From a virus, in the IMG/VR virus record IMGVR_UViG_3300034107_000725, positions 32,001 to 96,000 of that record: a DNA stretch of 64,000 nt, one strand, 5' to 3'. A program made the position numbers and the translations under genes. The notes under the pieces were generated by a model that worked only from the letters and a program-made list of their open reading frames with translations, ran no database searches and was not told where the DNA came from. This document shows, piece by piece, positions 2-64,000 of this stretch; position 1 is the first letter of the stretch, and every line of letters begins with the position of its first letter.

Positions 2-535
2 AATAATCCAACTGCTCCCGTACAGCCGCAACCTTCGTCTCCGTCATTAGAGGCACAACAGCTCAGATTACAGGTAGCCCAGCAGACTGCTATGATCAAC
101 TCGATGGTTTCTCGACTCAACATGCTGACAGATAAAGCTGTAGTACCCGAGACAAAACCCGTTGAGCCTGTGACACCGCCAGTTGACGTAGACGCCATTC
201 TGTCAAAAGCGTTTCAAGGGCTTCAAATTCCGTTTTTTAACAGCGACAAGCCGGAACGCCCACAGTATGAAACCTATTTTGAGATGGCGAAAATGGGTAC
301 AATGGCGGCTCGCTACCATGCTGTGATACTGGGCCAAGACTGTTTGGCTCTTGTCTATGACACACGCTTTGCTGACGGTTTTCAGTATCTACCGCCAAAC
401 TTGGGCGAAGAGTTGATCACAGTCTCGGTTCCGAAGCTCAAAGAAGCAAACTGTGTATGCTCTTCGTTGGGGCTACACTGGACGCTCGGTTGTCTGGATG
501 TTGTCATCCTCATTCGACACAAGGGAGAAGTTTGA
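2..535 (+). CDS. Hypothetical protein, 5'-truncated by the window edge
   Basis: The frame of ORF 92..535 is open back to position 2; its TGA overlaps the next ATG at 535. Confidence 0.7.
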   Translation, partial: NNPTAPVQPQPSSPSLEAQQLRLQVAQQTAMINSMVSRLNMLTDKAVVPETKPVEPVTPPVDVDAILSKAFQGLQIPFFNSDKPERPQYETYFEMAKMGTMAARYHAVILGQDCLALVYDTRFADGFQYLPPNLGEELITVSVPKLKEANCVCSSLGLHWTLGCLDVVILIRHKGEV

Positions 536-744
536 TGGCTATGGAAAAGAACGGTGCGATCAGTAACGAAACTCCAAACTGCGGCAACAACTGTGGCTGC
601 TCCAAGCAGGCCAGTGCACGGCAGCAAAATTTGACTCCGGGATCTCTGTTCCCGGATACGATTAAAGAAGCCAACGCAATGGACGACGATATCACTAAAA
701 GAGCTGTAGAAGCCGTTCGTGCTTCCACAAAAGTCACACAGTAA
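535..744 (+). CDS. Small protein (69 aa) with three K-x-A motifs
   Basis: ATG at 535 preceded by AGGGAG; contains CGNNCGC, KQA, KEA and KRA. Confidence 0.65.
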   Translation: MAMEKNGAISNETPNCGNNCGCSKQASARQQNLTPGSLFPDTIKEANAMDDDITKRAVEAVRASTKVTQ

Positions 745-768
745 TTGTAGCTCACGGAGGATCGGCGA

Positions 769-2685
769 ATGTCATCGCTTGTTTCTAGCGGTAGTCCTTA
801 CTTCAGCCGCGGTGCTGGTGCATCCTACGGTGAAACAGGATTTGCCGATCCTTGGAATGATCTAGCAACTACCCAGATGCCGACGACCATGAAGTCGGCA
901 CTGTGGTGGTCTGAGTATATCTGGACGGTGCATGGTACCTACCGGATGGCTATGGAGCGGATTGTAAGCTACTTCCTAACCGACGTAGAGATTGGCGGCG
1001 AAGCCAGCGACGAAGAGAAGAAGAAGTACGAAGGCTTTCTTAACGATCAGCTACAGATCATGCCGTTTCTGGGCATGGCGATGAGAGACAGATTATGTTA
1101 CGGAAATGCCTTCGTCAGCGTGGTCGTGCCTTTTCGTCGTTTTCTACAGTGTCCCAAGACGGGTGATATGTATCCGCTCAAGGTCGCGTACAACAACTTT
1201 GATTTCAAACTCAACGATGAGTTTGAATTCATAGCTACCTGTCCTAAGACTGGCTGGCGTGGAGCTTGGCAGGTTGTGGACAAGCCGCGAGAAGAAGCAG
1301 AGCACATCATTCTCAAACGCTGGAATCCACACGAAATCGAAATCCTGCACGATCCTTATACAGATGAGGCTGCTTATCTGTGGCGGATCCCTGAGTACTA
1401 CAAGCGGATGGTAAAAGAAGGTAATCTGTTTCACCTAGAACGCTGTAGCCGTCAAGTGATGGAAGCGATCCGGCACAACAAGCTGTTTAGGTTCAACCAA
1501 GATGCCATCTTCCACCTGAAGGAACCAACTCTGGCCGGTATTCGAAACATGGGTTGGGGCTTACCTCGCAGTCTGACAAACTATCGTCAAATCTGGTACG
1601 TACAAGTGCTGCGACGATACAACGAAGCAATTGCTCTGGATTACGTGATTCCTTTTAGGTTAATCACACCGGGTAACAGTGGTGGTGCAGGTGCGGGCGG
1701 CATCTCAACACAAGACCCGATGTCGATCTACGCTGCTGGAGACTTCAGGTCTCAGGTGCGGAACATGATCAACAAGCGTCGCCGAGATCCTGCCAGCTGG
1801 CAGATGTTACCGTTTCCAGTGAACTATCAGATGCTGGGTGGCGACGCCAAACAGCTGGCACCTACAGAAATGATTCAACAAGGCACGGAAACCCTGCTGA
1901 ATGAAACCGGTGTACCGGTGGAGTTCTATCAAGGGTCGCTGTCTTTGCAGGCTGCCCCAGTGGCTCTACGGCTGTTTGAAAGTACACACCGCAGTCTTGT
2001 CTCCGATGCCAACATGCTACTGCGTTGGATCTGCGAATCCATCGGACGGATCATGTCTTGGGAGAAAGTGGACTGCCATCTTCAACGTGTCACAATCGCT
2101 GATGACATGCAGAAGCAAATGTCGGCTCTCCAGCTGATGATGGGCCAACAACTCTCTGGGCATTCCGGACTCAAAGCAATCGGATACGACTGGGAGACAG
2201 AACAAAATCTTATTGCAGCCGAAGCTCGCAAGCAGCAAGAGCTTCAGGCCCGACAACAAGAAGAAATGGAACAAGCCGGTTTTGCCGCCGAAGTGGCCAA
2301 GGGAAACAACCCAAACGCAGCGATGGCACAACCCGGCGGTGGGGCTCCGCAGCCAGGTGGAGGTGCTCCTCAACAGGGTGGAGCTCCGCCGCAAAGTGGT
2401 CCAGATATGGCGGCAGCTGGTGGGTCTCCCGTTACCAACTATATTCAAACCATGGGTGCAAATGCTGCGGTTACGCCAAACGATCTGCAATCCGCAGCAG
2501 GGCAACTGGCTCAAGAACTGCTTGGATTGCCAGAAGGCGTGAAAGACTCGCAGTTAAGACAGTTGAAGCAGTTCAATCCGACGTTGCACTCGTTGACACG
2601 TACTAAAATGGATGAAATGCGACAACAGTTTCGCACTCAAGGCGGAGCCATGCTACAACAACAACAGATGGGCGGAGGCCAGTAA
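769..2685 (+). CDS. Phage portal-like protein with a Gln/Gly/Pro/Met-rich C-terminal tail
   Basis: GGAGG RBS; portal-like succession of motifs (LCYGNAFV, RWNPHEIEI, IFHLKEP, GWGLPR, EAIALDYVIPFRLI); low-complexity tail. Confidence 0.7.
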   Translation: MSSLVSSGSPYFSRGAGASYGETGFADPWNDLATTQMPTTMKSALWWSEYIWTVHGTYRMAMERIVSYFLTDVEIGGEASDEEKKKYEGFLNDQLQIMPFLGMAMRDRLCYGNAFVSVVVPFRRFLQCPKTGDMYPLKVAYNNFDFKLNDEFEFIATCPKTGWRGAWQVVDKPREEAEHIILKRWNPHEIEILHDPYTDEAAYLWRIPEYYKRMVKEGNLFHLERCSRQVMEAIRHNKLFRFNQDAIFHLKEPTLAGIRNMGWGLPRSLTNYRQIWYVQVLRRYNEAIALDYVIPFRLITPGNSGGAGAGGISTQDPMSIYAAGDFRSQVRNMINKRRRDPASWQMLPFPVNYQMLGGDAKQLAPTEMIQQGTETLLNETGVPVEFYQGSLSLQAAPVALRLFESTHRSLVSDANMLLRWICESIGRIMSWEKVDCHLQRVTIADDMQKQMSALQLMMGQQLSGHSGLKAIGYDWETEQNLIAAEARKQQELQARQQEEMEQAGFAAEVAKGNNPNAAMAQPGGGAPQPGGGAPQQGGAPPQSGPDMAAAGGSPVTNYIQTMGANAAVTPNDLQSAAGQLAQELLGLPEGVKDSQLRQLKQFNPTLHSLTRTKMDEMRQQFRTQGGAMLQQQQMGGGQ

Positions 2686-12542: not shown

Positions 12543-12543
12543 A

Positions 12544-16173: not shown

Positions 16174-16818
16174 TTGCCATACAAATCAGAAGCTCAACGA
16201 CGCTACTTCAACGCTAATCGCGATAAGTTGGAAGCTGAAGGTGTTGACGTCGACGAATGGAACCAATCCAGTAAGGGTAAAAAAATGCCAGAAAAGACTG
16301 CAATCGAGAAGTTGGCTCGCTGTTGGAAAGGGTACGAACCAGTACCAGGCAAAGCACCCTACAGCGACGATAGCTGTCGCCCTAAAGGGTCAAAGGCTAA
16401 AAAAAAGGATGAGAAGCAGGCTTCTTTAATTCCGGATTTTAACAGTGTCCGAGGACTGGCCAAGCTAGCGGCTACCAGTGTGGCTTACAGCCTTGGAATG
16501 CCTGCGGCGTCATCGGCAATTGGTGCGGGCATGGGTTATCTTGGACATAAATTGTCTGATGCCATCCATCCTTATGAAGATGAGGATGATCGGAGACAAG
16601 CTCGTAATACCTCAATGCTGATGGGAGCGGGTGGAGGTTTGGGGCGAGGCATGTTACACGTAGCTATGCGAAATGCTAACCAAGCGTCCATGGATCCCGG
16701 AGCGTCGACATCCAAAGAGCGTCAGGCTGCGTTTGAGTTTAAGATGAGTCAGCGGGCAAAGGAAAACGCGGCAAAGGTTAATGCCGTGATGGAACGCATA
16801 AAAGCAACCGGCAAATAA
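16174..16818 (+). CDS. Putative virion protein with basic N-terminal modules, K-x-A motifs and a glycine-zipper hairpin
   Basis: MPYKSEAQRR and CWKGYEPVPG modules; KTA, KLA, KQA; GAGMGYL...GAGGGLG. Confidence 0.6.
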   Translation: MPYKSEAQRRYFNANRDKLEAEGVDVDEWNQSSKGKKMPEKTAIEKLARCWKGYEPVPGKAPYSDDSCRPKGSKAKKKDEKQASLIPDFNSVRGLAKLAATSVAYSLGMPAASSAIGAGMGYLGHKLSDAIHPYEDEDDRRQARNTSMLMGAGGGLGRGMLHVAMRNANQASMDPGASTSKERQAAFEFKMSQRAKENAAKVNAVMERIKATGK

Positions 16819-18800: not shown

Positions 18801-19356
18801 CACGTGGTTTTCAAAGATAAGAGACGAGCAGATTCGTTTGTTGGAGATAGGTGTTTTGATCGGCGGCTCGCTACGCATGTGGGAAGAGTACTTTCCAGGT
18901 GCTGAGATTCACGGAGTAGATATTGACGACAGGACAGAACATGCAACCTCCCGCATCTCTGTTTACCGTGCGGATCAAACCAAGATAGAAGATCTAGAGG
19001 CACTACCTCGAGATTGTCACATCATCGTTGACGACGGTGGCCATACGATGCTGCAACAGCAGATAACACTCAACACGTTGTTTGACAGTCATCTCCTACC
19101 GGGCGGCACCTACGTTCTTGAAGATCTGCACACCTCTGACGTGGAACACTATCCGAAGTGGGCAGCCTACGGTTCAAACATGAGAAACAACACACTAAAG
19201 CTGCTGGAAGATTTGCAACGAGGCGTACTTTCAGAGAATAATGAGTATTACATCAGTGGTGCTGATTTCTGTCGATTAAGGGATCAGATCGCTTTTATTG
19301 AGATCGTAAGGGTCAAAGCGGACTCAGTCACGTCACGCATCGTCAAGAAGACATGA
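18718..19356 (+). CDS. SAM-dependent O-methyltransferase (sugar/macrolide methyltransferase-like)
   Basis: HHTDK, LLEIGV...GSLRMWEEYFP, GVDID, IIVDDGGH, GGTYVLEDLHTS. Confidence 0.85.
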   Translation: MLRPTLHELGIHHHTDKAVYHLFTVIYDTWFSKIRDEQIRLLEIGVLIGGSLRMWEEYFPGAEIHGVDIDDRTEHATSRISVYRADQTKIEDLEALPRDCHIIVDDGGHTMLQQQITLNTLFDSHLLPGGTYVLEDLHTSDVEHYPKWAAYGSNMRNNTLKLLEDLQRGVLSENNEYYISGADFCRLRDQIAFIEIVRVKADSVTSRIVKKT

Positions 19357-21428
19357 ACCCTATGCCCACACTGCAAGACTTAGCCAAGGTAGCCGCACTC
19401 CGAAGTGAGGTGACGCTGCAACCACACCAGCAGAAGGTAGTCGACCGCATCAACAGCGGCGATAAACGCCTTCTGCTTTATCACGGACTGGGAAGTGGTA
19501 AGAGTCTTTCGTCATTGGCTGCCGCTGAGGCTGCTGGTGACGATTACGACGTTGTGGTCCCTGCAGCTCTGCGGCCAAACTACCAGAAGGAAGTTGCCAA
19601 GTTTACAGAAGGCTCAAACCCAGAGGTTCTGAGCTACACCGGGATTGGTGCAGGCAAGACATTCCAGACATCACCCAAGACAATCATCTTTGACGAAGCC
19701 CACAGACTTCGTAACCCGGGCACAGCGAGCACACAGGCTGCGACAGAGTTGGCCAATGAAGCGGAGAACCTTCTGCTCCTGACAGGCACACCGATCACCA
19801 ACTCACCGACAGATCTGGCACCACTGCTCTCGATGCTTCGCAAAGAGAAGATCACACCAGAGCAGTTTGAGCGAAACTACATTGGACACCGCAAGGTCTA
19901 TCCAACCTGGCTCAGTCGTCTGACAGGACGAGGCGTAGGTGAAGAAGCCTATGTCAAGAATGAAGACAATTTGCGGGAACAGCTCAAAGGCCTGATCGAC
20001 TATCAGCCCAGCAAGACACCGGAAGGCGTAAACGTCAACGAAGAAACGGTACGGGTGCCGCTGAGTCGAGGACAGTCACGCATACAGCAGGCGGTGAGGG
20101 ATAAGATCCCGCCAGAGTATGCCTGGAAGTTGGACAAAGAGTATCCGCTCACTCGAGAAGAGTTGAGTCGGATGAACTCGTTTCTGACGGGACTACGGCA
20201 GTCAAGCCTCTCGACTCAACCCTTTCGCGGTGATCGTGACCCACTCAACGCGTTTGACGAATCAAGCAAACTCCAAAAGGCGTTTGGAGATTTGCAAGAA
20301 ACACTGAAGACAGATCCACGTAAAAAAGCCTTGGTGTATTCCAACTACATCGACGCAGGCCTGGGTCCATATGCAGCAGCTCTTCAGCGAGCCAAGATCC
20401 CGTATGGCATGTATCACGGCAGCATGCCAGTTGAGGAACGTAAAAAAGCTCTTCAAGACTATAACGAAGGAACACTGAAAGCTCTGCTGCTTGGCCCAGC
20501 CGCTGCGGAAGGCATCAGCACACAAGGCACAAGTTTGATTCAGCTGCTTGATCCTCACTGGCATGAGTCACGAGGACGACAAGCCGAAGGACGTGGGCTG
20601 CGATTCGACTCACACGAAGGCTTACCATCTGAGCTGAAAAACGTAGCGATAAAGCGTTATCTATCGGAAAGTCAGGATCCGTCCTTTATAATGTCACTTC
20701 TTGGTGCACGAAGACAACGCACAGGTGACGAGATCTTAGAACGGCTGGCTGCTAATAAAGAGCAGCTCAATAATCAGTTTCGTAAGATCCTTCAGGAGGA
20801 AGGCAGTTCGATGAATAAGCAATCGTCCCACCGCAGGAATGTTCCAATCGGTATTGCCTATGACCCAGAGATGCACGCGGCGTTGATTCGCTGGGAAAAT
20901 GCCAAAAGCAAGCGGTTGTCACCCGGATTGCAGCGACAAGTGCAGGCAAACCTGGGTTGGACAGGCAAACAAGTGGCGGACGACCTGGATCTTGTTGAGT
21001 TGTTGATGGAGCAGGAAGACGCCAAAGAACAAAGCATGAAAGCCACTGGCCCGATACAGGCGTTGGCCAAGATGGCTGCATGCGGCGACACATGCAGATG
21101 CGGGCAGACTGAGAACGAATGCACCTGCTCTGACGTTGAGAAGCTGGCACGCCTGGTCGCCAAACAGGCTTCCGGTGGAGCCTGGACACGAGCGGAGGGT
21201 AAGAGCGAGTCAGGCGGTCTCAACGCCAAAGGACGAGCCAGCCTCAAAGCTCAGGGACAGAACATCAAACCACCAGTGACCGAAGACAAACCTACGGGCG
21301 AGCGAGCTGGGCGTAAGTCCAGCTTTTGTGCTCGTATGGGTGGCATGAAGAAAAAGCTGACCAGCTCAGAGACTGCCAATGATCCAGATAGCCGTATCAA
21401 CAAAGCACTGAGAAAATGGAATTGCTGA
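19353..21428 (+). CDS. SNF2-family helicase/ATPase with a C-terminal basic phage module
   Basis: LQPHQ, HGLGSGKS, DEAH, LLTGTP, helicase-C (EGISTQG, QAEGRGLR); C-terminal AWTRAEGKSESGGLNAKGRAS...FCARM...RINKALRKWNC (DUF6321-like, from memory). Confidence 0.9.
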   Translation: MNPMPTLQDLAKVAALRSEVTLQPHQQKVVDRINSGDKRLLLYHGLGSGKSLSSLAAAEAAGDDYDVVVPAALRPNYQKEVAKFTEGSNPEVLSYTGIGAGKTFQTSPKTIIFDEAHRLRNPGTASTQAATELANEAENLLLLTGTPITNSPTDLAPLLSMLRKEKITPEQFERNYIGHRKVYPTWLSRLTGRGVGEEAYVKNEDNLREQLKGLIDYQPSKTPEGVNVNEETVRVPLSRGQSRIQQAVRDKIPPEYAWKLDKEYPLTREELSRMNSFLTGLRQSSLSTQPFRGDRDPLNAFDESSKLQKAFGDLQETLKTDPRKKALVYSNYIDAGLGPYAAALQRAKIPYGMYHGSMPVEERKKALQDYNEGTLKALLLGPAAAEGISTQGTSLIQLLDPHWHESRGRQAEGRGLRFDSHEGLPSELKNVAIKRYLSESQDPSFIMSLLGARRQRTGDEILERLAANKEQLNNQFRKILQEEGSSMNKQSSHRRNVPIGIAYDPEMHAALIRWENAKSKRLSPGLQRQVQANLGWTGKQVADDLDLVELLMEQEDAKEQSMKATGPIQALAKMAACGDTCRCGQTENECTCSDVEKLARLVAKQASGGAWTRAEGKSESGGLNAKGRASLKAQGQNIKPPVTEDKPTGERAGRKSSFCARMGGMKKKLTSSETANDPDSRINKALRKWNC

Positions 21429-21466: not shown

Positions 21467-21967
21467 GTGAAGCAAGCCGCTGACACTGGCCCACAAAGCA
21501 TGCTGCAAAATCTGGTTTTTAACTGCATCGACCTGAGCTTGCTGTTCAAGCATTGCCACTGGAATGTCAGAGGCGTGATGTTTAAACCACTACACGACTT
21601 TCTTCAAACGGTCTACGAAACTCTGTCTGACATCACTGATGACGTGGCCGAGCGTCAGGTGATTATGGGTACTCCGTCCAGCGGCCTGATAGCTGGAGTT
21701 GTAGCCCAGACAGCCATGGATCCTTTACCGGTCAAATTCCTCTCTCCTGAGGAAATTGTTAACGAATTGACCGACCGGCTTACTCAGCTGGTTGAGCAGT
21801 TCAACGACGCGATACGTACTGAACAGAATCCAGTCACCGGCAATATGCTTCAGGACATGACTGCAAGACTTGAGAAACATTTATGGATGCTTCGAAGTCA
21901 AAAGGCAGAGGTTGAGTATGCCACCAAGGTGGCCCTAGCTCGAGCTGCAGTCCATTTACGAGGTTAA
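21467..21967 (+). CDS. dps: Dps/ferritin-like protein
   Basis: HCHWNVRG, LHDFL, DDVAER and LEKHLWMLRS are Dps ferroxidase-centre motifs. Confidence 0.85.
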   Translation: MKQAADTGPQSMLQNLVFNCIDLSLLFKHCHWNVRGVMFKPLHDFLQTVYETLSDITDDVAERQVIMGTPSSGLIAGVVAQTAMDPLPVKFLSPEEIVNELTDRLTQLVEQFNDAIRTEQNPVTGNMLQDMTARLEKHLWMLRSQKAEVEYATKVALARAAVHLRG

Positions 21968-48276: not shown

Positions 48277-48720
48277 ATGCAGACAAAAGAAGCGTTTAAA
48301 CTTGGATTTTTGGCTCGTTGTGTGGAAGAAGGCTTATCGCCAGAACAAACACACACGTTGGCCAAAATGGCAGCAGATCAGCTGGAAAAACGATCACTCA
48401 GTCCTAACCCACTAGGTTGGCTAACCGGACAGGTCACAGCTCCTGTCAAGAACATAACAGACGCCTATAAGGCGGTGCTTGACTCTGCTTCGTCTACTGT
48501 GCCCCTGGCGGCCTTAGCCATGGCGGTGCCTCCGGCTCTTGGCGGCTCTGCAGCTTGGCTCGCAAACCGAGCCACGGACACGGATGCCACAGATATTGAT
48601 CAGGTTAAGCAGAAAGAATTGTCGGATACATATCGTCGGATGGCGGCTCAAATGAACCGACAAAAGCAGCTGCGTAACTACAAGCAGGAACGCAAGCGAA
48701 CAGGTCGGGTCTACTTGTAA
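48277..48720 (+). CDS. Putative virion membrane-associated protein
   Basis: KEAF, KMA, EKRS; central hydrophobic helix. Confidence 0.6.
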   Translation: MQTKEAFKLGFLARCVEEGLSPEQTHTLAKMAADQLEKRSLSPNPLGWLTGQVTAPVKNITDAYKAVLDSASSTVPLAALAMAVPPALGGSAAWLANRATDTDATDIDQVKQKELSDTYRRMAAQMNRQKQLRNYKQERKRTGRVYL

Positions 48721-49094: not shown

Positions 49095-49106
49095 TTCAAC
49101 AAGGAT

Positions 49107-50000
49107 GTGACTATGGACGTTCGAACAGCAAAGGCGTTGCTTAAACAGATTCAACAGGTGAAGCAAGCAGAGACCGGAAATGTCACGGTGGCGGGTTTAC
49201 CTGCACCAGCATCACCAACTCCAACTTCGTTTTCTTTTCTGGCTCGTAATATGCCAAATTTGTTACCTGGCAGCCTGCCTAAAGATTTGGCTAAGCAACA
49301 AAATACTAAGCTACAGTCAGATACTCAAAAGGCCATCATTAGAACTATGATGTTGGCAGCTGGCGGAGGTGCTGCTGTGCGTGGACTTACAGGCTTAACT
49401 AATATGCTAGGCGAATCACCACAAATTGCCTCAACAGGTCGTACTGTAGAAATGCCTGTCGCATATGCCGAGGAGCCGAAACGTAAAAAAAGGATGAAAC
49501 AAGCAGAGGCATTCAAATCGAGTGTCGACACTTATAACCAGGGAGCTACAAACAAAATTGGGTTGAACTACTACATACCGGGCATGCTGATCGGCGGCGG
49601 GTTAGCGGCTTACGGCGGCTGGAAGGGTGTAGACCATCTGCTAGATGCTCAACGGCGTAAGCATACAAATGAGGACATGGAAGCAGCAAAACAGGAATAT
49701 GAAGACGCTCTGCTCGGGGCATATAAAAAAGCAACGGATACGGCACTAGATCAAACCTTTGAGCGTTATGAAAAACAAGCATATCTTGAGAATATACCGG
49801 GAGCTTTACAAGGTGCCGGACTGGCTTACACGGCAGCGTCACTTCCAATCGGTTACATGATCGTTAATGACATGATGAAAAAGAACAGCAAACAAGCCTT
49901 GTTACAAAAAGCTCTGCAAGAGCGAGCTCGTCGTCAAGCCATGACACAGCCACCAGAAATTTATGCGATTCCACACTCACCCAACGAGGAGAGCGAATAA
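49107..50000 (+). CDS. Putative virion protein with K-x-A motifs and hydrophobic Gly-rich helices
   Basis: KQA three times plus KKA; three hydrophobic segments. Confidence 0.6.
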   Translation: MTMDVRTAKALLKQIQQVKQAETGNVTVAGLPAPASPTPTSFSFLARNMPNLLPGSLPKDLAKQQNTKLQSDTQKAIIRTMMLAAGGGAAVRGLTGLTNMLGESPQIASTGRTVEMPVAYAEEPKRKKRMKQAEAFKSSVDTYNQGATNKIGLNYYIPGMLIGGGLAAYGGWKGVDHLLDAQRRKHTNEDMEAAKQEYEDALLGAYKKATDTALDQTFERYEKQAYLENIPGALQGAGLAYTAASLPIGYMIVNDMMKKNSKQALLQKALQERARRQAMTQPPEIYAIPHSPNEESE

Positions 50001-50003
50001 GCG

Positions 50004-54443: not shown

Positions 54444-54473
54444 CCAGATCAGATTGACAAGGAGATCATAACG

Positions 54474-55187
54474 ATGGGACTGAACCTCGAGCTTCTTAAA
54501 CAAGCCCGATATAACGTACGGGAGCTGGAAAAATCAGCATTTGTAGCTGCCGGTGACCCGTCAATGGGTGGAGATCCTGCGGCTATGGCTGGTGGCGGTG
54601 CTCCTCCTATGGACCCAGCTATGGCTGGCGGTGCCCCTCCAATGGATCCGGCGATGGCTGGCGGTGCCCCTCCAATGGATCCGGCGATGGCGGGTGGTGC
54701 TCCTCCTATGGATCCGGCGATGGCTGGCGGCGGCGATCCAATGGCTGCAATCATGCCGATGATTCAGCAAGCGGTACAGCAAGCAATGGCAGCCAACGGT
54801 GGCGGCGGTAGTGGTCCACAAGCAGGCGGGCCCGGAATCAAACCCAAGATCGACGTCAACGTCGAAATCATGCAGATGAAGAAGATGTTGGCCAAGATGA
54901 TGGACGCCATGGGAATCCACATGCCCGTAGCCGACATGGTGGCCACACCAGAAGATCTCAATCAGATTGCACAAGGTGGAGCCGGTTTCGCCGCAGCTAC
55001 GCCTGATAACGGTGGCGGACTGGGAGCCATCAAGCCGATACAGGCTATGAAGGCCGCAGAAGACTGGGAAAGCGGTGTAGCCTTTACACCTCCTTCCGAG
55101 AATTCATTCCAGCAGTCACACAACGTCACAAGAAGTACGGCAAACATGGCAACAGCGTTATTGCTGCGTAACCGTATGACGGGTTGA
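54474..55187 (+). CDS. Low-complexity Met/Gly/Pro/Ala protein with tandem repeats
   Basis: AAGGAG RBS; KQA, KSA, KAA; MDPAMAGGAPP repeats. Confidence 0.7.
   Translation: MGLNLELLKQARYNVRELEKSAFVAAGDPSMGGDPAAMAGGGAPPMDPAMAGGAPPMDPAMAGGAPPMDPAMAGGAPPMDPAMAGGGDPMAAIMPMIQQAVQQAMAANGGGGSGPQAGGPGIKPKIDVNVEIMQMKKMLAKMMDAMGIHMPVADMVATPEDLNQIAQGGAGFAAATPDNGGGLGAIKPIQAMKAAEDWESGVAFTPPSENSFQQSHNVTRSTANMATALLLRNRMTG
54609..54740 (+). repeat. Coding tandem repeat, 4 x 33 bp (MDPAMAGGAPP)
   Basis: Units start at 54609, 54642, 54675 and 54708, differing mostly at third codon positions. Confidence 0.9.
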
Positions 55188-55203
55188 GCAGAAGGACAGT
55201 TCG

Positions 55204-55428: not shown

Positions 55429-55429
55429 C

Positions 55430-56140: not shown

Positions 56141-56152
56141 GAGGCTGTTTGC

Positions 56153-59100
56153 ATGCTGAATACGACTGTCGGCCAACTGTTGGTAAACGAATCACTGCCT
56201 GAAGACTTGCGGGACTATAACCGAGTCCTGGACAAGAAAGGTATGGGTGCGTTGTTACAGCAGGTGGCTCGACAGTATCCAGAAAAGTACCGTGAAGTGT
56301 CGTTTCAGCTGAGTCAGGTTGGGCAGAGGTCAGCTCAAGACCAGGGGGGTATGTCGTTCGGCATGCGTCACCTGAAACGAAGTAAGATCGCCAACGAAAC
56401 TCGGAAACGGATTCAGGGGCAGCTAGACAACATCTTGTCTGATGACTCGCTCACAGATCAGCAACGCAACGATCTGATTGTGAAAACAGTTGGACGTGAG
56501 AGCGAACCGCAGCAGAAGGCAGTGCTGGAAGAAGCCATTCAAGCCAAGAATCCGTTAGCAATGCAAGTGCTTTCAGGTAGCCGCGGTAAGCCTATGAATC
56601 TTGCCAGCTTGCTGGCAGCAGATATGCTGTACTCGGACCACAGGGATGAGGTTATTCCAATTCCGGTGCTTCGCAGTTACAGCGAAGGCTTGTCCCCGGA
56701 AGAATACTGGGCTGGAACTTATGGTGCTCGTCGCGGGATCATCGCAACTAAGTTTGCCACTCAGGAAGCGGGATTTCTGAGCAAACAGTTAAATCAAGCA
56801 GGTCACCGGCTGGTCGTAATGGGTGAAGAGGGTGACGAAGATCCGGAAGCACCTACTCGGGGTTTGGTCGTTGATACTGACGACATGGACAACGAGGGTT
56901 CGCTTTTGGCTCGGGACGTAGGACCGTACAAGCGAAACACCCCACTTACCCCCAAGATTCTCAAACAACTACAGCGACTTGGCAAAAACCGGATTTTAGT
57001 CAGGTCGCCGATGGTTGGTGGTTCTCCTGAGGGTGGTGTTTATGCTCGAGACGTTGGTATCCGTGAACACGGTACCTTGGCAGGGTTAGGCGAGCAGGTC
57101 GGACTTCAGGCAGCTCAGGCTTTGTCTGAACCGATTAGCCAAGGGCAGCTTTCGGCAAAGCACTCTGGCGGCGTTGCCGGGCAGGAAAAGGCGGTTGGTG
57201 GATTCCAATACATCAATCAGCTGATTCAAACGCCCAAGAAGATGCAGGGTGGAGCTGCTCACTCTACATTGGACGGTACGGTGCAGCGAGTAGAACCTGC
57301 TGCTGCCGGTGGGTTCAACGTAACGATTGACGGCAAGCCGCACTATGTAGGTGAGGGCTTTGGTGTCAAAGTTAAAAAAGGGGATAACGTCGAAGCCGGG
57401 GATGTGCTTAGCGACGGTATTCCCAATCCAGCGGTCATCACTCAGTACAAAGGTGTTGGTGAGGGTCGCCGTTACTTTGTCAACGAATTCCGCAAAGCTA
57501 TGTCAGCTAGCGGTATGCAGGGACACCGCCGCAACATTGAGTTGCTGGCACGCGGATTAATCAATCACGTTAAGCTCACGGAAGAGACTGACGATCATGC
57601 TCCGGACGATATCGTCCCGTATTCTACGTTGGAGCATACATACAAGCCACGGGAAGGCCATGAGCGTCTAACGCCCAAAAAAGCGTTGGGCCAGTATCTG
57701 GAACGTCCGGTGTTGCACTACACCATTGGCACTAAGATTCGCCCGTCGATGCTTAGAGACTTCGATGATTTCGGAGTCCAGGCAATCCCGGTGCATAAGA
57801 ATCCGCCACCGTTCGAGCCACATATGGTACGAGGTATGTACCAAATGCAGCACGATCCGGATTGGATGACCCAGATGTACGGTTCCGGACTCAAAAAGAG
57901 TCTGCTGGAATCCACAGCACGTGGAGCAACCAGCGAGGAACGGGGTACCAGCTTCATCCCCAGCTTGGCGTCAGGCACTGATTTTGGCGAAGTCCCAGAT
58001 CGTGCAGTGATTCAGCCTAAGCCTGCATATTCATTGCCTAAAGTATCCATTCCTGACTTGGAGCCTGAAAATTCAGGATCCACGTTCTTTGGAGGCCGAT
58101 ACAAAGTAGGCATGCAAAAAAGGGCGGTAGAAGCGACCCCACCCAAAGTCGAGGCTCCGGCCTCCACATCTATGTCGGCTCCTACCGCCCCTACTCCCTC
58201 CCCGTCGAATGCCGCAGAGTTGGGTAGCAATAATATTATGTCCCCGGCTACAACTGTCCAGCCCAAACTGGATACAGTGACTCAGCCGATTCAACCGCCA
58301 GCGGATATACCACAGGCAAGCCAGACTCCTAGAGCAAGCCAGACTCCTCCAGCCAGTCAACCGCCGCCAGCCAGTACACCAGCACAGGTTCGGGCAGATG
58401 TGATGCAGGCTTCAAGAACCGCAACTCCGCCTCCGATTCAAGAACCTTTGCCGCAGATTAAAAGACCGTCAACTAAGATGCCAGAGCTATCTACTGGAAC
58501 CGCATCCACTTCTCGGCTAACCAGTTCTCGGCTAGGCTCACAAACAGCAGGCATTCCATGGTGGCGGGCAACAGCAAAGCCGACAGACACGACATGGAAT
58601 AAAACAGAAAATACCGAATTCCATTCTCAGCCTAACTCTGTGTTAGGTGCGACACCGTCTGTGGCCAACCTGGCTGCGAGTCGTTCCTACGCACCAGAGC
58701 CTCCAGCTGCACCTGTAAAGGGTTATGCAGATTATGCTCAAGACGCCTGGGACGCGTTTAAAAACCCTGTAACAACGATTAGTAATCAACTCTACGGTAC
58801 GCCGGAACCTACTGCGGGTAACTCGTTTTCCGATGATGGAAATCTGTTGGCTCGCTCTGGGGTAAATATGGGTCTTAAACAAATGATGGGCCGCTCTGCC
58901 CCGGCTGCGATTACTGCAGCAGCTGAAGCTGCAGTTCCATTGTCTCGGGTGGGTCGATTGGCAGCCGGAGCTCGAGCTTTGTTGCCGGGGTTTTTACCTG
59001 GGGCCAGACTGGCAGCCGGAGGTGCCGCAAGTGCTGCGGGTGGTCTATCTTTGGCACCGGCAGCGATAGGCTTTGCTGCGGTTAACGCAGGCACTGAGCT

Positions 59101-59335
59101 GCTTGACGCAGGCGGTCTTTTGCCAGAATGGGCGGGTGGAGATGGTTGGGGTACTATGGGCTGGGATCAAACTGGCTTCGAAAACGACTTTAAAGATCGG
59201 AGTATACCGGGGGCTGCCTTACATACCGTTATGAACCCACTTAAAAGCATATGGGCTGGCGGTACACGACTAGGTGATGCAGGTTATAGGGGAACGAGCT
59301 GGCTGTACGACAAGTTTAGAGGCGGGGCAAAATAG
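56153..59335 (+). CDS. RNA polymerase beta' C-terminal half with a ~400-aa non-RNAP extension
   Basis: TTVGQ, SGSRG, bridge helix TYGARRGIIATKFATQEAGFLSKQL, trigger loop AAQALSEPISQGQLSAKHSGG, GDVLSDG; then a P/S/T-rich linker and Gly/Ala hydrophobic tail. Confidence 0.9.
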   Translation: MLNTTVGQLLVNESLPEDLRDYNRVLDKKGMGALLQQVARQYPEKYREVSFQLSQVGQRSAQDQGGMSFGMRHLKRSKIANETRKRIQGQLDNILSDDSLTDQQRNDLIVKTVGRESEPQQKAVLEEAIQAKNPLAMQVLSGSRGKPMNLASLLAADMLYSDHRDEVIPIPVLRSYSEGLSPEEYWAGTYGARRGIIATKFATQEAGFLSKQLNQAGHRLVVMGEEGDEDPEAPTRGLVVDTDDMDNEGSLLARDVGPYKRNTPLTPKILKQLQRLGKNRILVRSPMVGGSPEGGVYARDVGIREHGTLAGLGEQVGLQAAQALSEPISQGQLSAKHSGGVAGQEKAVGGFQYINQLIQTPKKMQGGAAHSTLDGTVQRVEPAAAGGFNVTIDGKPHYVGEGFGVKVKKGDNVEAGDVLSDGIPNPAVITQYKGVGEGRRYFVNEFRKAMSASGMQGHRRNIELLARGLINHVKLTEETDDHAPDDIVPYSTLEHTYKPREGHERLTPKKALGQYLERPVLHYTIGTKIRPSMLRDFDDFGVQAIPVHKNPPPFEPHMVRGMYQMQHDPDWMTQMYGSGLKKSLLESTARGATSEERGTSFIPSLASGTDFGEVPDRAVIQPKPAYSLPKVSIPDLEPENSGSTFFGGRYKVGMQKRAVEATPPKVEAPASTSMSAPTAPTPSPSNAAELGSNNIMSPATTVQPKLDTVTQPIQPPADIPQASQTPRASQTPPASQPPPASTPAQVRADVMQASRTATPPPIQEPLPQIKRPSTKMPELSTGTASTSRLTSSRLGSQTAGIPWWRATAKPTDTTWNKTENTEFHSQPNSVLGATPSVANLAASRSYAPEPPAAPVKGYADYAQDAWDAFKNPVTTISNQLYGTPEPTAGNSFSDDGNLLARSGVNMGLKQMMGRSAPAAITAAAEAAVPLSRVGRLAAGARALLPGFLPGARLAAGGAASAAGGLSLAPAAIGFAAVNAGTELLDAGGLLPEWAGGDGWGTMGWDQTGFENDFKDRSIPGAALHTVMNPLKSIWAGGTRLGDAGYRGTSWLYDKFRGGAK

Positions 59336-59416
59336 TGTTTGGGTTGCGATGTTAGCCCACGTCGGGCTAAACTGAGTTATCCATCTATCTCTTTTTGTAA
59401 AATCCAGGTGATCAGG

Positions 59417-59641
59417 ATGTTCAACGGAATAATGCTTGGCGGTATCAGCGAGAAGTATGCGGGTGCTTACCTCTTGCCTCCAGCCAAACGGAAGAAGAAA
59501 AAGCCACAACCCGATGAAGTTGATCCAGAAGTGCTGGATAAAGTGGCATCTGCCGTTGTGCGTAATCAACAGGCTATCATGCAACAACAACTGGCGGCAG
59601 GCGACCTGGGCGGCGGCTGGAATCCATACGACCAAGTCTAA
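59417..59641 (+). CDS. Small hypothetical protein
   Basis: AGGA RBS before ATG 59417; KYA and KVA motifs. Confidence 0.55.
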   Translation: MFNGIMLGGISEKYAGAYLLPPAKRKKKKPQPDEVDPEVLDKVASAVVRNQQAIMQQQLAAGDLGGGWNPYDQV

Positions 59642-59691
59642 GCCAACATCACTTCTCTGGAACTGACGAGCTGTTGCTCACGGAAGGGACC

Positions 59692-62199
59692 ATGCAAACA
59701 CAACTGAATAAGACAGCCGCCCTCGGCGGCAGCGGCGGCGAAACCGAATTTGAACAGGCTTTTTCTAGCCTGGCCTATGCCTATCTACGGGATAAAGCCC
59801 CACGGTTGCTAGATTTCATGGTCGGTTTTCAACTAGTCGACCGCAATGAAGATAACACCAAAGCGATGGGTATCTTCGGATTTCAAGTTGGCAAGCAGTG
59901 GCTATATGCCCCAGTGTTCTTCTTAAACGGCGATCTCAAAGGTCACGAGTTGCTCTACATGAAGAACAACGACTCCTTTGTGCCGCTGAAGGAAAACTGG
60001 ATTAACTACATTATGAGCCGCAAGCCCCACATCTTGGGCGAGCAATCTGCCTCAAAGTTGCGAGAGCTTGGTGGCGTTTATCCGGATATCCGGACGCTTT
60101 CAATCCCACCTTCAATTGGTGGTGGCAAGCGTGCCAGTGATAACAGCTGGCTTCAAGGCGTGATGCCGATGCTGGCTGCTTTCAAAACCAAAGCGGCTAG
60201 CTCACTCTATCGTGGAGCAGGGAACCGCAAGCTCAATCAAGCTGCTGTAGTTGCCGATCCGTTCGGTGCCGCTTTGGCAAAGCAGGCTTCAATTCTGGAT
60301 TTTAACAACGTCATGCCACAGAGTCTGGAACTGATCAAGATGGCTCACGCTATCTCTGAACGGTACCCGACAATCAAACTGGCGATGCAGAAGTTCTACG
60401 GTGTAGACTGCTTCTCACGCTGGAGCAAAGACCTGCGTAACAACCTGGAGAAGGAAGCCAGCAACATTCTGCCCGTGCAGATTGCGGCCAAACCTTATAT
60501 GCCGGGCAATTTGTTGATCCCAACAGAACGACCAGCCGGACCAATCGATCACGTCAAGCAGGGCAAACTCAATCTGGATGCTCCAGAATACGTGTTTGAA
60601 CGTGGTGGATTTATTGTCGATACGCTTGATGTCAGATTCCAGGTTGAACGGGAATCTGCCGGTATTACAGACAGTCGTGCCGACGACGAAGTATCGAAGG
60701 CTTACAACACTCAAGTTGACGTGCGGATGACCAATCCAACCGAAACCAACTTGTACCGTGTGCTGGAACGTCCAGGCAAGTTCAGCAAGATGCTGGTTGT
60801 GATGCACGGCAGCAGCAACCGTGGACGAGAACCATTTGCCACGTTGGTACGACTGGAAGACAACGGCGACGGTGGTGATAAGGCCTGGCTCAACAGCCAT
60901 GCCACCAACATCTTTGCCGATCAGACCGCGGAACGCGATGAGTGGCGGGAATGGTTTGAAAGCCTGCCAGGCTCGGAATCGTTGCAAGACGGCGGTGAAT
61001 ACATCGCAGTTTCCGAGGATGGCTCGGGTACTGTGCCGTTCCATGTGCAGTCTAACTACGGCGACGGACGTCACCGTGTGGACTTCCGCACTCACGTCAA
61101 CTTCGACGAAGCTCGGCCCAGCACGATGCCTCGTTTGCAGAAGATCACCGATCCGTTTACGGAGGAAGGTTATCACATGCCGAGCACGTACGGTGCCATG
61201 CTGTACACCGATAAAGAGGGCAAGAAAGGTACACGGCTGCGAGCAATTGCCGGTGAGCTTCGCGTGCCTGACTCTTTCAAGTTCCTTAAGCTATCGGAAC
61301 CGCAAAAGCCCAGATCTGGCGAATTGATGCCTTGCTCCAATTACAACAGCCGCAGCGACATGCCGCCGATTCAGCTTGGTAAGATCGACGACATCCAGCT
61401 CTTCTTCTACGAAAAGACGGCTGGGTTGCAGTTGTTAAACAACAGCACAGACGTCTACATTGACTCGGTGCTGGGTTCAGAGCGGGTCAGTCTTAAAGAA
61501 GCCGCGTGGCATCTGGTAAGCGTGCATGGTCTTCGCGAGAAGGCAGCTCGTGAGCTGCTGGAACAGTCAGAACGTAAGGGCAAAACCAGTTACCGGATCG
61601 AGTATGCTCCGGGTTACGGCAATCAAAAGCAGGCTGGACCAAACGACAGCGTGCTGGCTGGCGGCCCAGATGCCCCAATCTTTGACGACTTTGCTGAAGA
61701 GCGAAGTGTTGAAAACTACGGGCCTCGTACTTCTGCTCCAACTCAGTACGGCGGTGAAGCTGCTTACCGTTTGAACCACTTGAGTGCAGATCAAACTGAC
61801 CCAGGTGTATGGAACCCATGGCAGAACTACGAAGCAGAAGACTTCCAGAAGAATGTACAGAAAGCTCAACAGGCTGGAGCACAGGGACAGAAGGAAGTCT
61901 TTGATACTTCGATGATCTCCGGTATGCTCAAGTCCGTTCGGCAGGATTCGCTGGTTGAACGTCACCTGGCTCCGCTGGTTGAATCTTTAGACGCCTTAGG
62001 CCGCCTGTTGATGAACTTCTACTGGCACGGCGAAGAGTTTGAAGATCGCTATGGTAAAAGCGATATGCCTGAGCTGGAAGATAGCCTTCGAAATTCCTTC
62101 GAGGCCTTGGGTGATGTTACGCTCTTCCTGAAAGAGAAAACTGTCGAATCGCCGTTTGATAGCGGTGATGTCAATCTCGAAGAAACTTCAAGGAACTAA
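59692..62199 (+). CDS. Large putative virion protein with periodic K-x-A motifs
   Basis: KTA near the N-terminus, then KAA, KQA, KEA, KTA, KQA; conserved-looking N-domain (GFQLVD...PVFFLNG). Confidence 0.7.
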   Translation: MQTQLNKTAALGGSGGETEFEQAFSSLAYAYLRDKAPRLLDFMVGFQLVDRNEDNTKAMGIFGFQVGKQWLYAPVFFLNGDLKGHELLYMKNNDSFVPLKENWINYIMSRKPHILGEQSASKLRELGGVYPDIRTLSIPPSIGGGKRASDNSWLQGVMPMLAAFKTKAASSLYRGAGNRKLNQAAVVADPFGAALAKQASILDFNNVMPQSLELIKMAHAISERYPTIKLAMQKFYGVDCFSRWSKDLRNNLEKEASNILPVQIAAKPYMPGNLLIPTERPAGPIDHVKQGKLNLDAPEYVFERGGFIVDTLDVRFQVERESAGITDSRADDEVSKAYNTQVDVRMTNPTETNLYRVLERPGKFSKMLVVMHGSSNRGREPFATLVRLEDNGDGGDKAWLNSHATNIFADQTAERDEWREWFESLPGSESLQDGGEYIAVSEDGSGTVPFHVQSNYGDGRHRVDFRTHVNFDEARPSTMPRLQKITDPFTEEGYHMPSTYGAMLYTDKEGKKGTRLRAIAGELRVPDSFKFLKLSEPQKPRSGELMPCSNYNSRSDMPPIQLGKIDDIQLFFYEKTAGLQLLNNSTDVYIDSVLGSERVSLKEAAWHLVSVHGLREKAARELLEQSERKGKTSYRIEYAPGYGNQKQAGPNDSVLAGGPDAPIFDDFAEERSVENYGPRTSAPTQYGGEAAYRLNHLSADQTDPGVWNPWQNYEAEDFQKNVQKAQQAGAQGQKEVFDTSMISGMLKSVRQDSLVERHLAPLVESLDALGRLLMNFYWHGEEFEDRYGKSDMPELEDSLRNSFEALGDVTLFLKEKTVESPFDSGDVNLEETSRN

Positions 62200-62856: not shown

Positions 62857-62866
62857 GGGGAGCTGT

Positions 62867-63877
62867 TTGAAGGTCTACAGGGACATAAGACTCGCTGATC
62901 CATTTCTTCGTCCGTACTGGCGTCATGAACGCGTAGTACGGATGTTAGGTAGCGTGCCTCCAGCACGGTGTCGGCGATATGACGATATCTGGATTCAAGA
63001 GTACAAGAAGTTCTTATTTGCATGGCGACGCGGTGTAGAGCATCGCGAACGCCTGCTTTATGAGAACCCGGGCTTGTACTATGCTTACAACCTGTATGAC
63101 CGCATGCATATTGAGCCAGACATGGCTCTCATGATTGAAGCTCGCCTGTTAGCGGGAAGCACTCCGGAAATGATTGCAAACGAGTGCAAGACCATTCCGG
63201 AAACAATCGAGTGGTACGAACGTCTGTTTTTCAACGTATTGGACTTTCTACCTCATCACGATTGGATTCTTAAAAACGTACTCCTACCCGCGTCTGATCG
63301 TTTTGTCGACCCTTCGATTGACGCAGTCACGAGCCTGAGAAATCCCACGGAAATCGTGCGACCATACCTGGACATGACACTGAAATTTTTCGCTTACTTT
63401 GGCGGACCGCTCGTTTGCGATATCATGATAAGTGGATTTCGACGTAACAACCAGGTTCAAAATCCAGAAGATCTTACGGACTACTTCAACGATCATTTTG
63501 CCAGTCAGCTACAACGCCGCAGTGCTCAAGCTGCCGGACAGTTTGAAATCAACAAGTACAACATCATGGAGTTGTTCACAACTCACACGAGACTTATTGA
63601 AGTGCAAAGATCCGGCAAGAATCCCGAAAATCGACACAACGATTTTGAAATGAACATCAACGAAATGTTGACCGCAATTCCTTGGACTGCCGGTAAGGCC
63701 AGCAAGACTCTGTATGAAGGTTCTATGATTGGACTGTATGATGACAGTGCGATCGAACTGGATTCGGAAGAAACAATCTTAACTGGTGTAGGTATGGAAT
63801 TGGAATCAGCCAGAGAAGCCAAAGCCACTCGAGTTTACAGCCAGGGGGAGCCACAACGCGATGCAAAGTCTAAGTAA
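62867..63877 (+). CDS. Hypothetical protein
   Basis: GGGGAG RBS before a TTG start; 336-aa ORF. Confidence 0.7.
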   Translation: MKVYRDIRLADPFLRPYWRHERVVRMLGSVPPARCRRYDDIWIQEYKKFLFAWRRGVEHRERLLYENPGLYYAYNLYDRMHIEPDMALMIEARLLAGSTPEMIANECKTIPETIEWYERLFFNVLDFLPHHDWILKNVLLPASDRFVDPSIDAVTSLRNPTEIVRPYLDMTLKFFAYFGGPLVCDIMISGFRRNNQVQNPEDLTDYFNDHFASQLQRRSAQAAGQFEINKYNIMELFTTHTRLIEVQRSGKNPENRHNDFEMNINEMLTAIPWTAGKASKTLYEGSMIGLYDDSAIELDSEETILTGVGMELESAREAKATRVYSQGEPQRDAKSK

Positions 63878-64000
63878 ATCGGACGAGCAGAAACTACTGG
63901 ACGGAGTCAAACAGGCTGTAGCCTTGGTTGACGATAAGGGTCTGACACCAGATGCCGCTTTGCAAAAAGTAGCAGAAGACCTGCAATATTCCCCCGGTTT
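63861..64000 (+). CDS. 3'-truncated protein (MQSLSKSDEQKLLDGVKQAVALVDDKGLTPDAALQKVAEDL...)
   Basis: GGGGGAG RBS; open to the window end; KQA and KVA motifs. Confidence 0.6.
   Translation, partial: MQSLSKSDEQKLLDGVKQAVALVDDKGLTPDAALQKVAEDLQYSPG

What the first reader, a model, noticed from the sequence alone, without database searches (positions are those of the whole stretch)
535..64000. Recurrent K-x-A motif as a candidate processing or packaging code for virion cargo
Seen: K-x-A (often preceded by E, L, M or V) is concentrated in virion-type ORFs. In 28998..29849, six of the eight lysines in residues 22-83 are K-x-A. The 69-aa ORF at 535 has three. The 59692 protein has them periodically, and they recur in 16174, 46343, 49107, 54474 and 63861. 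They also sit at folded-domain edges: KQA|Dps|KVA, KVA|SNF2|KQS, KSA|SET and RNAP beta'-C|KRA. Known: T4 gp21 and phiKZ gp175 prohead proteases cut many head proteins at short degenerate motifs. Inference: a Lys-x-Ala-specific maturation protease or targeting signal sorts and releases a large set of packaged proteins, including enzymes. Isolated K-x-A also occurs by chance (for example in nrdJ and GT2), so the signal lies in clustering and position.
Basis: partly seen in the sequence, partly recalled or inferred. Interest (0 to 1): 0.85.

Follow-up and report, generated by a model that had tools for sequence, protein, structure and literature searches.

The report
Lys-x-Ala head-protease cleavage code
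In this uncultured 194-kb phage and its relatives, the short signal Lys-x-Ala is packed into the proteins that build the capsid and also sits at the joints of shuffled cargo proteins; it is most likely the cutting signal of the phage's own capsid-maturation protease, a familiar kind of system with a specificity not yet described, and no cut has been measured.

Summary
K-x-A is in real excess, but only in certain proteins. In the head-assembly module (window 59674 onward, mostly beyond the window end) there are 75 sites against 27 expected. That is rank 1 of 400 a-x-b pairs (z 9.2). The excess is gap-specific, directional and in-frame only.

The excess is conserved. It holds in orthologues from four relatives, in 120 plus 120 metagenomic homologues, and in the cultured Salmonella phage Arash. 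Motif Lys and Ala are more conserved than other Lys and Ala.

The rest of the window (535-59641) has no count excess (87 vs 81). The signal there is positional:
- Six of eight Lys in residues 22-83 of the 28998 protein are K-x-A.
- There are conserved N-terminal sites in the 40740-59641 block, including the SET protein.
- K-x-A flanks small modules (DUF6321, Dps, SNF2 and others) that are arranged differently in relatives.

A 494-aa protein just past the window has the T4 gp21 prohead-protease fold (Z 8.1) and itself carries 17 sites. The same blind statistic applied to T4 recovers I/L-x-E.

Best reading: K-x-A, cut before A/S, is the cleavage motif of this protease. This is a new variant of a known kind, and cleavage is unproven. 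The scan reported the same motif on related phage genomes before.

The parts
541..744 (+). Small Cys-rich protein (67 aa from the conserved start) with 3 K-x-A sites
   Evidence: homologues in G001, G002, G004 and G005. The first and third sites are kept.
16174..16818 (+). Modular cargo-type protein. It has an N-terminal module ending in K-x-A, then a Cys/Trp mini-module flanked by K-x-A on both sides.
   Evidence: the same modules occur in other ORFs and in another order in relatives, always with K-x-A flanks. By count there is no excess (4 vs 3.2).
19353..21428 (+). SNF2 helicase fused to a C-terminal DUF6321 domain. There is a site at K12 and three sites (K573, K597, K604) in the joint before DUF6321.
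   Evidence: (Pfam). In G001 and G002 the SNF2 and DUF6321 parts lie in separate ORFs. DUF6321 is preceded by K-x-A in 5 of 5 genomes.
21467..21967 (+). Dps/ferritin-like protein with K-x-A at K2 and K154, on either side of the Ferritin domain
   Evidence: in G004 and G005 the domain is fused to other N-terminal parts and keeps K-x-A upstream and near its C-terminus.
22003..24594 (+). 863-aa protein with a DUF6782 metallopeptidase-like domain and a cluster of sites at K429, K438 and K449
   Evidence: This is a rival candidate enzyme for cutting the cargo joints.
28998..29849 (+). 283-aa protein whose residues 22-83 hold six K-x-A sites, with none after residue 83. Probably a leader or propeptide followed by a retained domain.
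   Evidence: p 5e-5; the K-x-A-rich segment is shared with longer proteins of G001 and G002.
40740..41306 (+). 188-aa protein with an N-terminal K-x-A at K26
   Evidence: conserved in 3 of 3 orthologues.
41557..42063 (+). SET-domain protein (domain at 41692-41922) with a K-x-A at K29, ahead of the domain
   Evidence: PF00856, 24.9 bits; every orthologue has an N-terminal K-x-A, though not in the same alignment column.
46343..47422 (+). 359-aa protein with 5 K-x-A sites (0.9 expected)
   Evidence: orthologues have 11 vs 3.7 (p 0.0016); four of the five sites are conserved.
48277..48720 (+). 147-aa protein with a conserved site at K30 in an L-A-K-x-A-A context
   Evidence: 2 of 2.
49107..50000 (+). 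297-aa protein with an N-terminal site at K19, and no count excess
   Evidence: 2 of 3.
54474..55187 (+). 237-aa protein with N-terminal sites at K9 and K20
   Evidence: 2 of 3 each.
56153..59335 (+). RNAP beta'-C subunit plus a ~400-aa extension. The K-x-A at K656 lies at the core/extension border.
   Evidence: RNA_pol_Rpb1_5; the G004 orthologue ends at 654 aa. G001 keeps K-x-A at this point, while G002 has K-x-G.
59692..62199 (+). 835-aa head-module protein of unknown fold with 11 K-x-A sites in two clusters
   Evidence: 120 homologues average 11.8 vs 4.4; no informative fold match; its N-terminal part weakly matches Arash gp218, an abundant virion protein.
63861..64000 (+). Start of a 461-aa head-module protein that runs past the window end. 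It has 14 K-x-A sites in residues 17-314 and none in the last 147 residues.
   Evidence: orthologues 44 vs 15.2, p 1.5e-9.

Best explanation
K-x-A is the recognition motif of the phage's own prohead (capsid-maturation) serine protease. The fuller consensus is hydrophobic-(E)-K-x-A-(A/S)-(A/D). The cut is probably after the Ala, between A and A/S.

The protease is the 494-aa protein encoded 2.4 kb past the window end (genome 98409-99893). It has the T4 gp21/assemblin fold.

Proposed course of events inside the assembled procapsid (inferred):
1. The protease removes about 24-34 residues from the N-terminus of the capsid protein.
2. It dices itself and the scaffold-like proteins, which carry a site every 20-35 residues, into peptides small enough to leave or to stay as internal peptides.
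3. It trims N-terminal leaders from internal proteins encoded upstream (window 40740-63861).

Less certainly, it also separates the modules of the shuffled multi-domain proteins at 16174-29849 (SNF2, Dps, DUF6321 and mini-domains), which would be packaged cargo.

Shown here: the enrichment, its conservation, its positions, and the protease fold. Inferred: that the motif is cut at all, where in the motif the cut falls, and that the window's enzymes are packaged.
For: The signal:
- Head module: 75 vs 27.1 expected, z 9.2, with the next pair at z 3.0. K-x-A-[AS] is 44 vs 5.5.
- The excess is specific to this spacing and direction. In the same proteins K-A, K-xxx-A and A-x-K show no excess.
- Only the coding frame is enriched, at 6.0 per kb against 1.0 and 0.4, and synonymous codons are mixed.

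Conservation:
- Counting orthologues only, p runs from 2e-12 to 6.5e-6 for six head proteins.
- 120 protease homologues average 16.6 vs 4.0, and every one is enriched 2.9- to 5.6-fold.
- Motif K is conserved 82% against 64% for other K. Motif A is conserved 84% against 58% (Fisher 3e-10 and 3e-22).
- Whole sites are kept 76% of the time against 40% expected in the head module. Elsewhere the figures are 24% and 24%.
- At conserved sites the first position is K in 87% and rarely R. The third is A in 89%.

Position:
- The capsid protein has sites only at K22 and K32 among 21 Lys.

The protease:
- Residues 17-230 match T4 gp21 (5jbl_A) with Z 8.1, rmsd 3.6 over 137 of 165 residues. Herpesvirus proteases come next (Z 4.8 and 3.8).
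- N102-H103 and S166-M167-A168 are invariant in 37 sequences.
- One relative carries an intein inserted directly after S-M-A.

Independent replicate:
- In cultured phage Arash (capsid protein 29% identical), K-x-A is the top pair in gp218-225 at 42 vs 17.9. Its tail and early genes show nothing.

Method control:
- The same blind statistic on T4 gp67/68/21/22 ranks I-x-E and L-x-E first and second. K-x-A ranks 15th there.

Cargo:
- 54 of 113 internal homology breakpoints lie within 8 residues of a site, against 22.4 expected.
- Four small modules keep K-x-A flanks in all genomes despite different order and fusion partners.
- N-terminal 30 residues of non-head proteins hold 38 sites vs 22.5 expected. 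There is no C-terminal excess.
Against: - No cleavage product has been observed. The Arash virion proteomics used trypsin and a tryptic search, and the paper does not mention processing.
- The protease matches no Pfam S77 or S78 profile and no PDB sequence profile. The assignment rests on a predicted fold of moderate confidence (pLDDT 75).
- Sites in the protease model show no preference for loops or helix ends (12 of 17 against a 71% background).
- Upstream of 59674 there is no count excess.
- The breakpoint test counts related genomes more than once.
- A metallopeptidase-like domain in the cargo region could cut the joints instead.
Confidence: 0.7

Rival explanations
1. K-x-A is a conserved docking or targeting signal and is not itself cut. 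It might bind the inner capsid shell, the scaffold or the protease. Cleavage, if there is any, would happen elsewhere.
For: The enrichment and conservation tests show selection on the motif but not scission. The motif also lies inside folded parts of the protease domain.
Against: The motif density in proteins that must be removed, its restriction to the capsid protein's N-terminus, its place at module joints, and the P3-x-P1 form shared with the T4, phiKZ and assemblin sites all fit cutting better.
Confidence: 0.1
2. There are two systems. The head protease uses K-x-A in the head module. The joints of the 16174-29849 multi-domain proteins are cut, if at all, by the embedded DUF6782 metallopeptidase-like domain or by a host enzyme, and the K-x-A sites there are incidental.
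For: One search found DUF6782 in the 22003 protein. Iyer et al. 2017 (PMC5512222) predict autoprocessing of polyvalent proteins by zincin-like peptidases. The cargo region has only a weak count excess (33 vs 24.9, p 0.07).
Against: K-x-A-[AS] is 2.4-fold enriched there (11 vs 4.6). Breakpoints coincide with sites. Module flanks are kept in 4-5 of 5 genomes.
Confidence: 0.12
3. K-x-A marks lysines modified by the phage SET-domain methyltransferase (41557-42063), not cleavage sites.
For: A SET domain is present. The motif strictly prefers Lys over Arg. From my own knowledge, the H3K27 site used by the chlorella-virus SET enzyme has a K-S-A context.
Against: The complete Arash genome has no SET match at E <= 1, yet it shows the same enrichment. 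The motif's distribution (scaffold, protease, capsid N-terminus, joints) is that of protease substrates. The SET protein itself carries an N-terminal site like the other putative cargo proteins.
Confidence: 0.03
4. The pattern is a by-product of Ala/Lys-rich helical composition, or of chance.
For: The enriched proteins are Ala-rich and largely helical. Single sites are expected about once per 240 residues.
Against: Expectations were computed from each protein's own composition. The signal is specific to spacing, direction and reading frame. Sites are conserved above background while sites elsewhere are not. The signal also occurs in the beta-rich protease domain. The T4 control does not show it.
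Confidence: 0.05

Closest known systems
Phage T4 prohead core: gp21 protease, scaffold gp22, gp67/gp68, and the capsid protein gp23 propeptide
   Same: The protease fold matches (Z 8.1). The protease gene sits beside the scaffold and capsid genes. A short P3-x-P1 motif is over-represented in the protease, the scaffold and the capsid N-terminus. The same statistic recovers I/L-x-E in T4. In T4 the scaffold and the protease are degraded to peptides (established knowledge).
   Different: There is no sequence-profile match to Peptidase_S77. The motif is Lys-x-Ala rather than Leu/Ile-x-Glu. The protein is 494 aa, with a Cys-rich insertion and a 260-aa helical C-terminal half. The capsid protein is only 315 aa.
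Giant phages phiKZ (gp175) and SPN3US (gp245): the A/S/G-x-E motif with N-terminal propeptides on many head and ejection proteins, including virion RNAP subunits
   Same: Many head proteins carry the motif. There are N-terminal propeptides, sometimes with several motifs. Multisubunit RNAP genes lie next to the head genes, and RNAP subunits are abundant in Arash particle preparations (PMC10052503; PMC10585845).
   Different: The P1 residue differs (Ala, not Glu). The capsid proteins are unrelated. Processing is experimentally shown in those phages and not here.
Herpesvirus assemblin (maturational protease)
   Same: It belongs to the same fold superfamily (VZV protease Z 4.8, HCMV protease Z 3.8). 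P1 is Ala and P1' is Ser, as in the HCMV substrate ...Asn-Ala-Ser-Ser... (PMC13486704). That matches A followed by A/S here.
   Different: Assemblin has a hydrophobic P3 (Val/Leu, from my own knowledge) and cuts at two sites in the scaffold. Here P3 is Lys and there are dozens of sites.
Polyvalent proteins of phages and conjugative elements (Iyer et al. 2017), and the P1 Dar proteins
   Same: These are multi-domain proteins that combine SNF2 ATPases, metallopeptidase-like domains and small domains in variable order. They are predicted to be packaged and proteolytically released.
   Different: That work names no joint motif and mainly invokes embedded zincin peptidases. Here the modules are spread over several ORFs, and the joints carry the same motif as the head module.

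Membership tests
Prohead serine proteases of the gp21/HK97 gp4/assemblin fold (MEROPS S77, S78, S21) | Assemblin-type fold of the catalytic domain | tested here: met
   5jbl_A has Z 8.1, rmsd 3.6 and 137 of 165 residues aligned, well above the unrelated rows. VZV and HCMV proteases follow; the top three Foldseek rows are gp21, though weak (E 0.07).
Prohead serine proteases of the gp21/HK97 gp4/assemblin fold (MEROPS S77, S78, S21) | Match to the family sequence profiles (Pfam Peptidase_S77 or Peptidase_S78) | tested here: not met
   no match, even at E 10; no PDB sequence match.
Prohead serine proteases of the gp21/HK97 gp4/assemblin fold (MEROPS S77, S78, S21) | Catalytic His followed by Ser, conserved and close together in space | tested here: inconclusive
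   H103 and S166 are invariant in 37 sequences, in the right order. An intein sits directly after S-M-A in one relative. Their spatial arrangement and equivalence to the gp21 catalytic residues could not be read from the tools.
Prohead serine proteases of the gp21/HK97 gp4/assemblin fold (MEROPS S77, S78, S21) | Gene lies within the head module, next to the scaffold and major capsid genes | tested here: met
   the gene order is conserved in five relatives and in Arash, where gp222 lies upstream of gp226, the capsid protein.
Prohead serine proteases of the gp21/HK97 gp4/assemblin fold (MEROPS S77, S78, S21) | Cleaves capsid, scaffold and itself at a short shared motif | not testable with these tools
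   Only the statistical footprint is shown.
T4-type internal proteins with a cleavable capsid-targeting leader | N-terminal leader that ends in the protease motif and is conserved among relatives | tested here: inconclusive
   N-terminal excess of 38 vs 22.5. Sites are conserved 49% vs 35% expected in the 40740-59641 block. I looked for no common leader sequence beyond a hydrophobic/E context, and found none.
Polyvalent proteins (Iyer et al. 2017) | Several unrelated conflict-type domains (SNF2, metallopeptidase and others) in one polypeptide, with variable architectures | tested here: met
   SNF2+DUF6321, a DUF6782-containing 863-aa protein, and modules re-fused differently in relatives, up to a 1292-aa protein in G001.
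Polyvalent proteins (Iyer et al. 2017) | Delivered with the DNA (packaged in the virion) | not testable with these tools
   The Arash particle proteomics lists 116 proteins, but the coverage figures are odd and the purity is unclear.

The most novel reading that the evidence does not exclude
One Lys-x-Ala code does two jobs. It destroys the assembly machinery (protease and scaffolds). It also dices a set of freely re-fused polyproteins into fifteen or more packaged mini-proteins and enzymes, including SNF2, Dps, a SET methyltransferase and an RNAP subunit. Gene fusion and fission in this phage clade would then be neutral, because the functional units are the pieces left after cleavage. That would be a polyprotein strategy like that of RNA viruses, operating inside a DNA phage capsid.
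Probability: 0.35. Interest if true: 0.75.

Novelty: new variant of a known kind. Interest (0 to 1): 0.6.

Why it matters
This phage clade is large. About a thousand protease homologues exist in metagenomes, and nearly all of its head proteins are unannotated. A predicted cleavage code does several things:
- It predicts mature protein ends.
- It separates proteins that are discarded from proteins that are kept.
- It flags candidate packaged proteins, among them a chromatin-type enzyme set (SNF2, Dps, SET) and a virion RNA polymerase.
- It extends the known range of specificity of gp21/assemblin-type proteases from P1 Glu to P1 Ala with P3 Lys.

A cultured member, Salmonella phage Arash, already has virion mass-spectrometry data, so the prediction can be tested directly.

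Tried and rejected
- Pfam and PHROGs on about 50 proteins of the head module and window were almost blank for head proteins.
- PDB searches for the protease with a single sequence and with a profile found nothing.
- A position-weight matrix built from 58 sites was overfitted and I dropped it.
- I tested whether sites in the protease model prefer loops or helix ends. They do not.
- Fold searches for the 835-aa protein in the PDB and in the viral library gave no informative match, so whether it is a portal is undecided. Arash annotates a different gene, gp204, as portal.
- Megablast of the RNAP gene against the phage collection found no match.
- The composition, DNA-motif and SET-methylation readings were considered and rejected, as set out under the rival explanations.
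- Literature searches found no report of a K-x-A prohead-protease motif. That covers the held library only.


Full report
**Context.** The window is genome positions 32001-96000 of a 193,990-bp phage contig that is transcribed almost entirely on one strand. PHROGs and Pfam leave nearly all head-region proteins unnamed.

**Is K-x-A in excess?** I computed expectations from each protein's own composition.
- Genome-wide, K-x-A occurs 320 times against 248 expected (z 4.5). That is rank 4 of 400 a-x-b pairs. The three higher pairs come from a Gly-repeat giant protein.
- The excess comes from a few proteins:
  - a 494-aa protein, 17 vs 4.2;
  - a 445-aa protein, 16 vs 4.8;
  - the 461-aa protein that starts at window 63861, 14 vs 3.8;
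  - the protein at 59674, 11 vs 3.6;
  - a 146-aa protein, 7 vs 1.8;
  - the 46343 protein, 5 vs 0.9;
  - the 28998 protein, 6 vs 1.8.
- Without the top ten proteins nothing remains (231 vs 224).
- Grouped by region:
  - head module (genome 91674-104154): 75 vs 27.1, z 9.2, with the next pair at z 3.0;
  - cargo-like region (window 16174-29849): 33 vs 24.9;
  - everything else: 212 vs 196.
- All window ORFs upstream of 59674 together show 87 vs 81.

**Nature of the signal.**
- In the enriched proteins K-A, K-xxx-A and A-x-K are not enriched. K-xx-A and K-xx-S are enriched only because position +3 is Ala or Ser in 58% of sites. Position -1 is Glu in 32%.
- At the DNA level only the coding frame is enriched, and synonymous codons vary.
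- The same blind ranking on T4 gp67, gp68, gp21 and gp22 puts I-x-E and L-x-E first and second, which is the experimentally known gp21 motif. K-x-A ranks 15th there. The statistic therefore finds real protease motifs, and K-x-A is not a general property of scaffold proteins.

**Conservation.**
- Five IMG/VR relatives were found. Four of them were fetched whole.
- Counting only the orthologues, six head proteins stay enriched, with p from 2e-12 to 6.5e-6. The 46343 protein gives p 0.0016.
- Motif Lys and Ala are more conserved than other Lys and Ala in the same proteins.
- As whole sites, 76% are kept in the head module against 40% expected. In the 40740-59641 block the figures are 49% and 35%. 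In the rest of the genome they are 24% and 24%, a clean null.
- 120 metagenomic homologues of the 494-aa protein average 16.6 sites against 4.0 expected. 120 homologues of the 59674 protein average 11.8 against 4.4.
- Thirteen sites in the protease family are near-fixed, while many others come and go.
- Lys is rarely replaced by Arg.

**A cultured relative.** The capsid protein and the 494-aa protein match Salmonella phage Arash and three Vibrio phages at 28-40% identity. In Arash gp218-225, K-x-A is again the top pair at 42 vs 17.9. Its tail and baseplate genes (31 vs 29.7) and early genes (31 vs 35.1) show nothing. The Arash paper reports tryptic virion proteomics. RNAP subunits are among the most abundant proteins. 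The paper says nothing about a protease or processing.

**The protease.**
- An AlphaFold model of the 494-aa protein has pLDDT 75.
- Residues 17-230 match T4 gp21 with Z 8.1. Herpesvirus proteases come next.
- H103 and S166 are invariant.
- One relative has an intein inserted immediately after the S-M-A triplet. This is consistent with S166 lying at a functionally important site, such as the catalytic serine.
- No other S77 or S78 protease is detectable in the genome.
- The capsid protein (315 aa, 88-92% conserved) has K-x-A only at K22 and K32.

**The window's own proteins.**
- The 28998 claim holds exactly.
- The small ORF at 535 is a conserved gene and keeps its sites.
- Proteins in the 40740-59641 block often carry one conserved N-terminal site. 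These include 40740, the SET protein at 41557, 46343, 48277, 49107, 54474 and 59339.
- Genome-wide there is an N-terminal excess outside the head module, 38 vs 22.5, and no C-terminal excess.
- The 16174-29849 region is made of modules: an N-terminal module, a Cys/Trp mini-module, a basic Leu-Trp module, DUF6321, Dps and SNF2. In relatives they occur in other ORFs and in other orders.
- Each module keeps K-x-A flanks in 4-5 of 5 genomes, often in an L-A-K-x-A-A context.
- Internal homology breakpoints lie within 8 residues of a site 54 times out of 113, against 22.4 expected. That test counts related genomes more than once.
- The RNAP beta'-C protein has a site where a shorter orthologue ends.

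**Interpretation.** The pattern is that of a prohead-protease code. Sites are dense in the proteins that must be removed. A few N-terminal sites occur in proteins that stay. Sites also mark the joints of probable cargo polyproteins. Ala at the third position followed by Ala or Ser resembles the Ala-Ser scissile bond of assemblin substrates. N-terminal propeptides with several motifs parallel SPN3US. Variable multi-domain cargo parallels the polyvalent proteins of Iyer et al.. The SET-methylation rival is weakened because Arash lacks a SET domain but has the motif. Cleavage, the exact scissile bond and packaging all remain untested.

**Earlier notes of this scan.** Other notes describe the same motif in the next window of this genome and in several related phage genomes, with similar conclusions. 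My tests were run independently and agree with them.

Noticed in passing
L014:2066-4690 (relative G005): The protease homologue carries a ~380-aa intein-like insertion (Hint plus homing-endonuclease type) directly after the invariant S-M-A and before a Cys.
   Followed up: partly
genome 98409-99893 (L003:8409-9893), residues 170-200: The protease domain holds a conserved Cys cluster (C176, C179, C190, C195, C200). This looks like a zinc-ribbon insertion and is not present in T4 gp21.
   Followed up: no
window 56153-59335: The RNAP beta'-C subunit carries a ~400-aa C-terminal extension, first Pro/Ser/Thr-rich and then Gly/Ala-rich and hydrophobic. It is absent from the G004 orthologue and longer in G001 and G002.
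   Followed up: partly
genome 105906-114998 (outside the window): A 3030-aa protein with Gly-repeat (collagen-like) composition dominates the genome-wide A-x-G, G-x-T and G-xx-G statistics.
   Followed up: no
window 59674-59692: The ORF probably starts at 59692. The 99%-identical database protein is 835 aa long.
   Followed up: partly
window 25692-26465 (- strand): This is the only long minus-strand ORF (257 aa) inside the otherwise plus-strand cargo region.
   Followed up: no
relative G005, 12505-13257 (- strand): The ORF stops about 15 residues into its DUF6321 module. This may be a truncation or a frameshift relative to G004.
   Followed up: no
PMC10585845, Table 2: The Arash virion proteome lists 116 proteins. 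Several show 100% coverage from 2 unique peptides, so the table cannot be used to judge processing or purity.
   Followed up: partly
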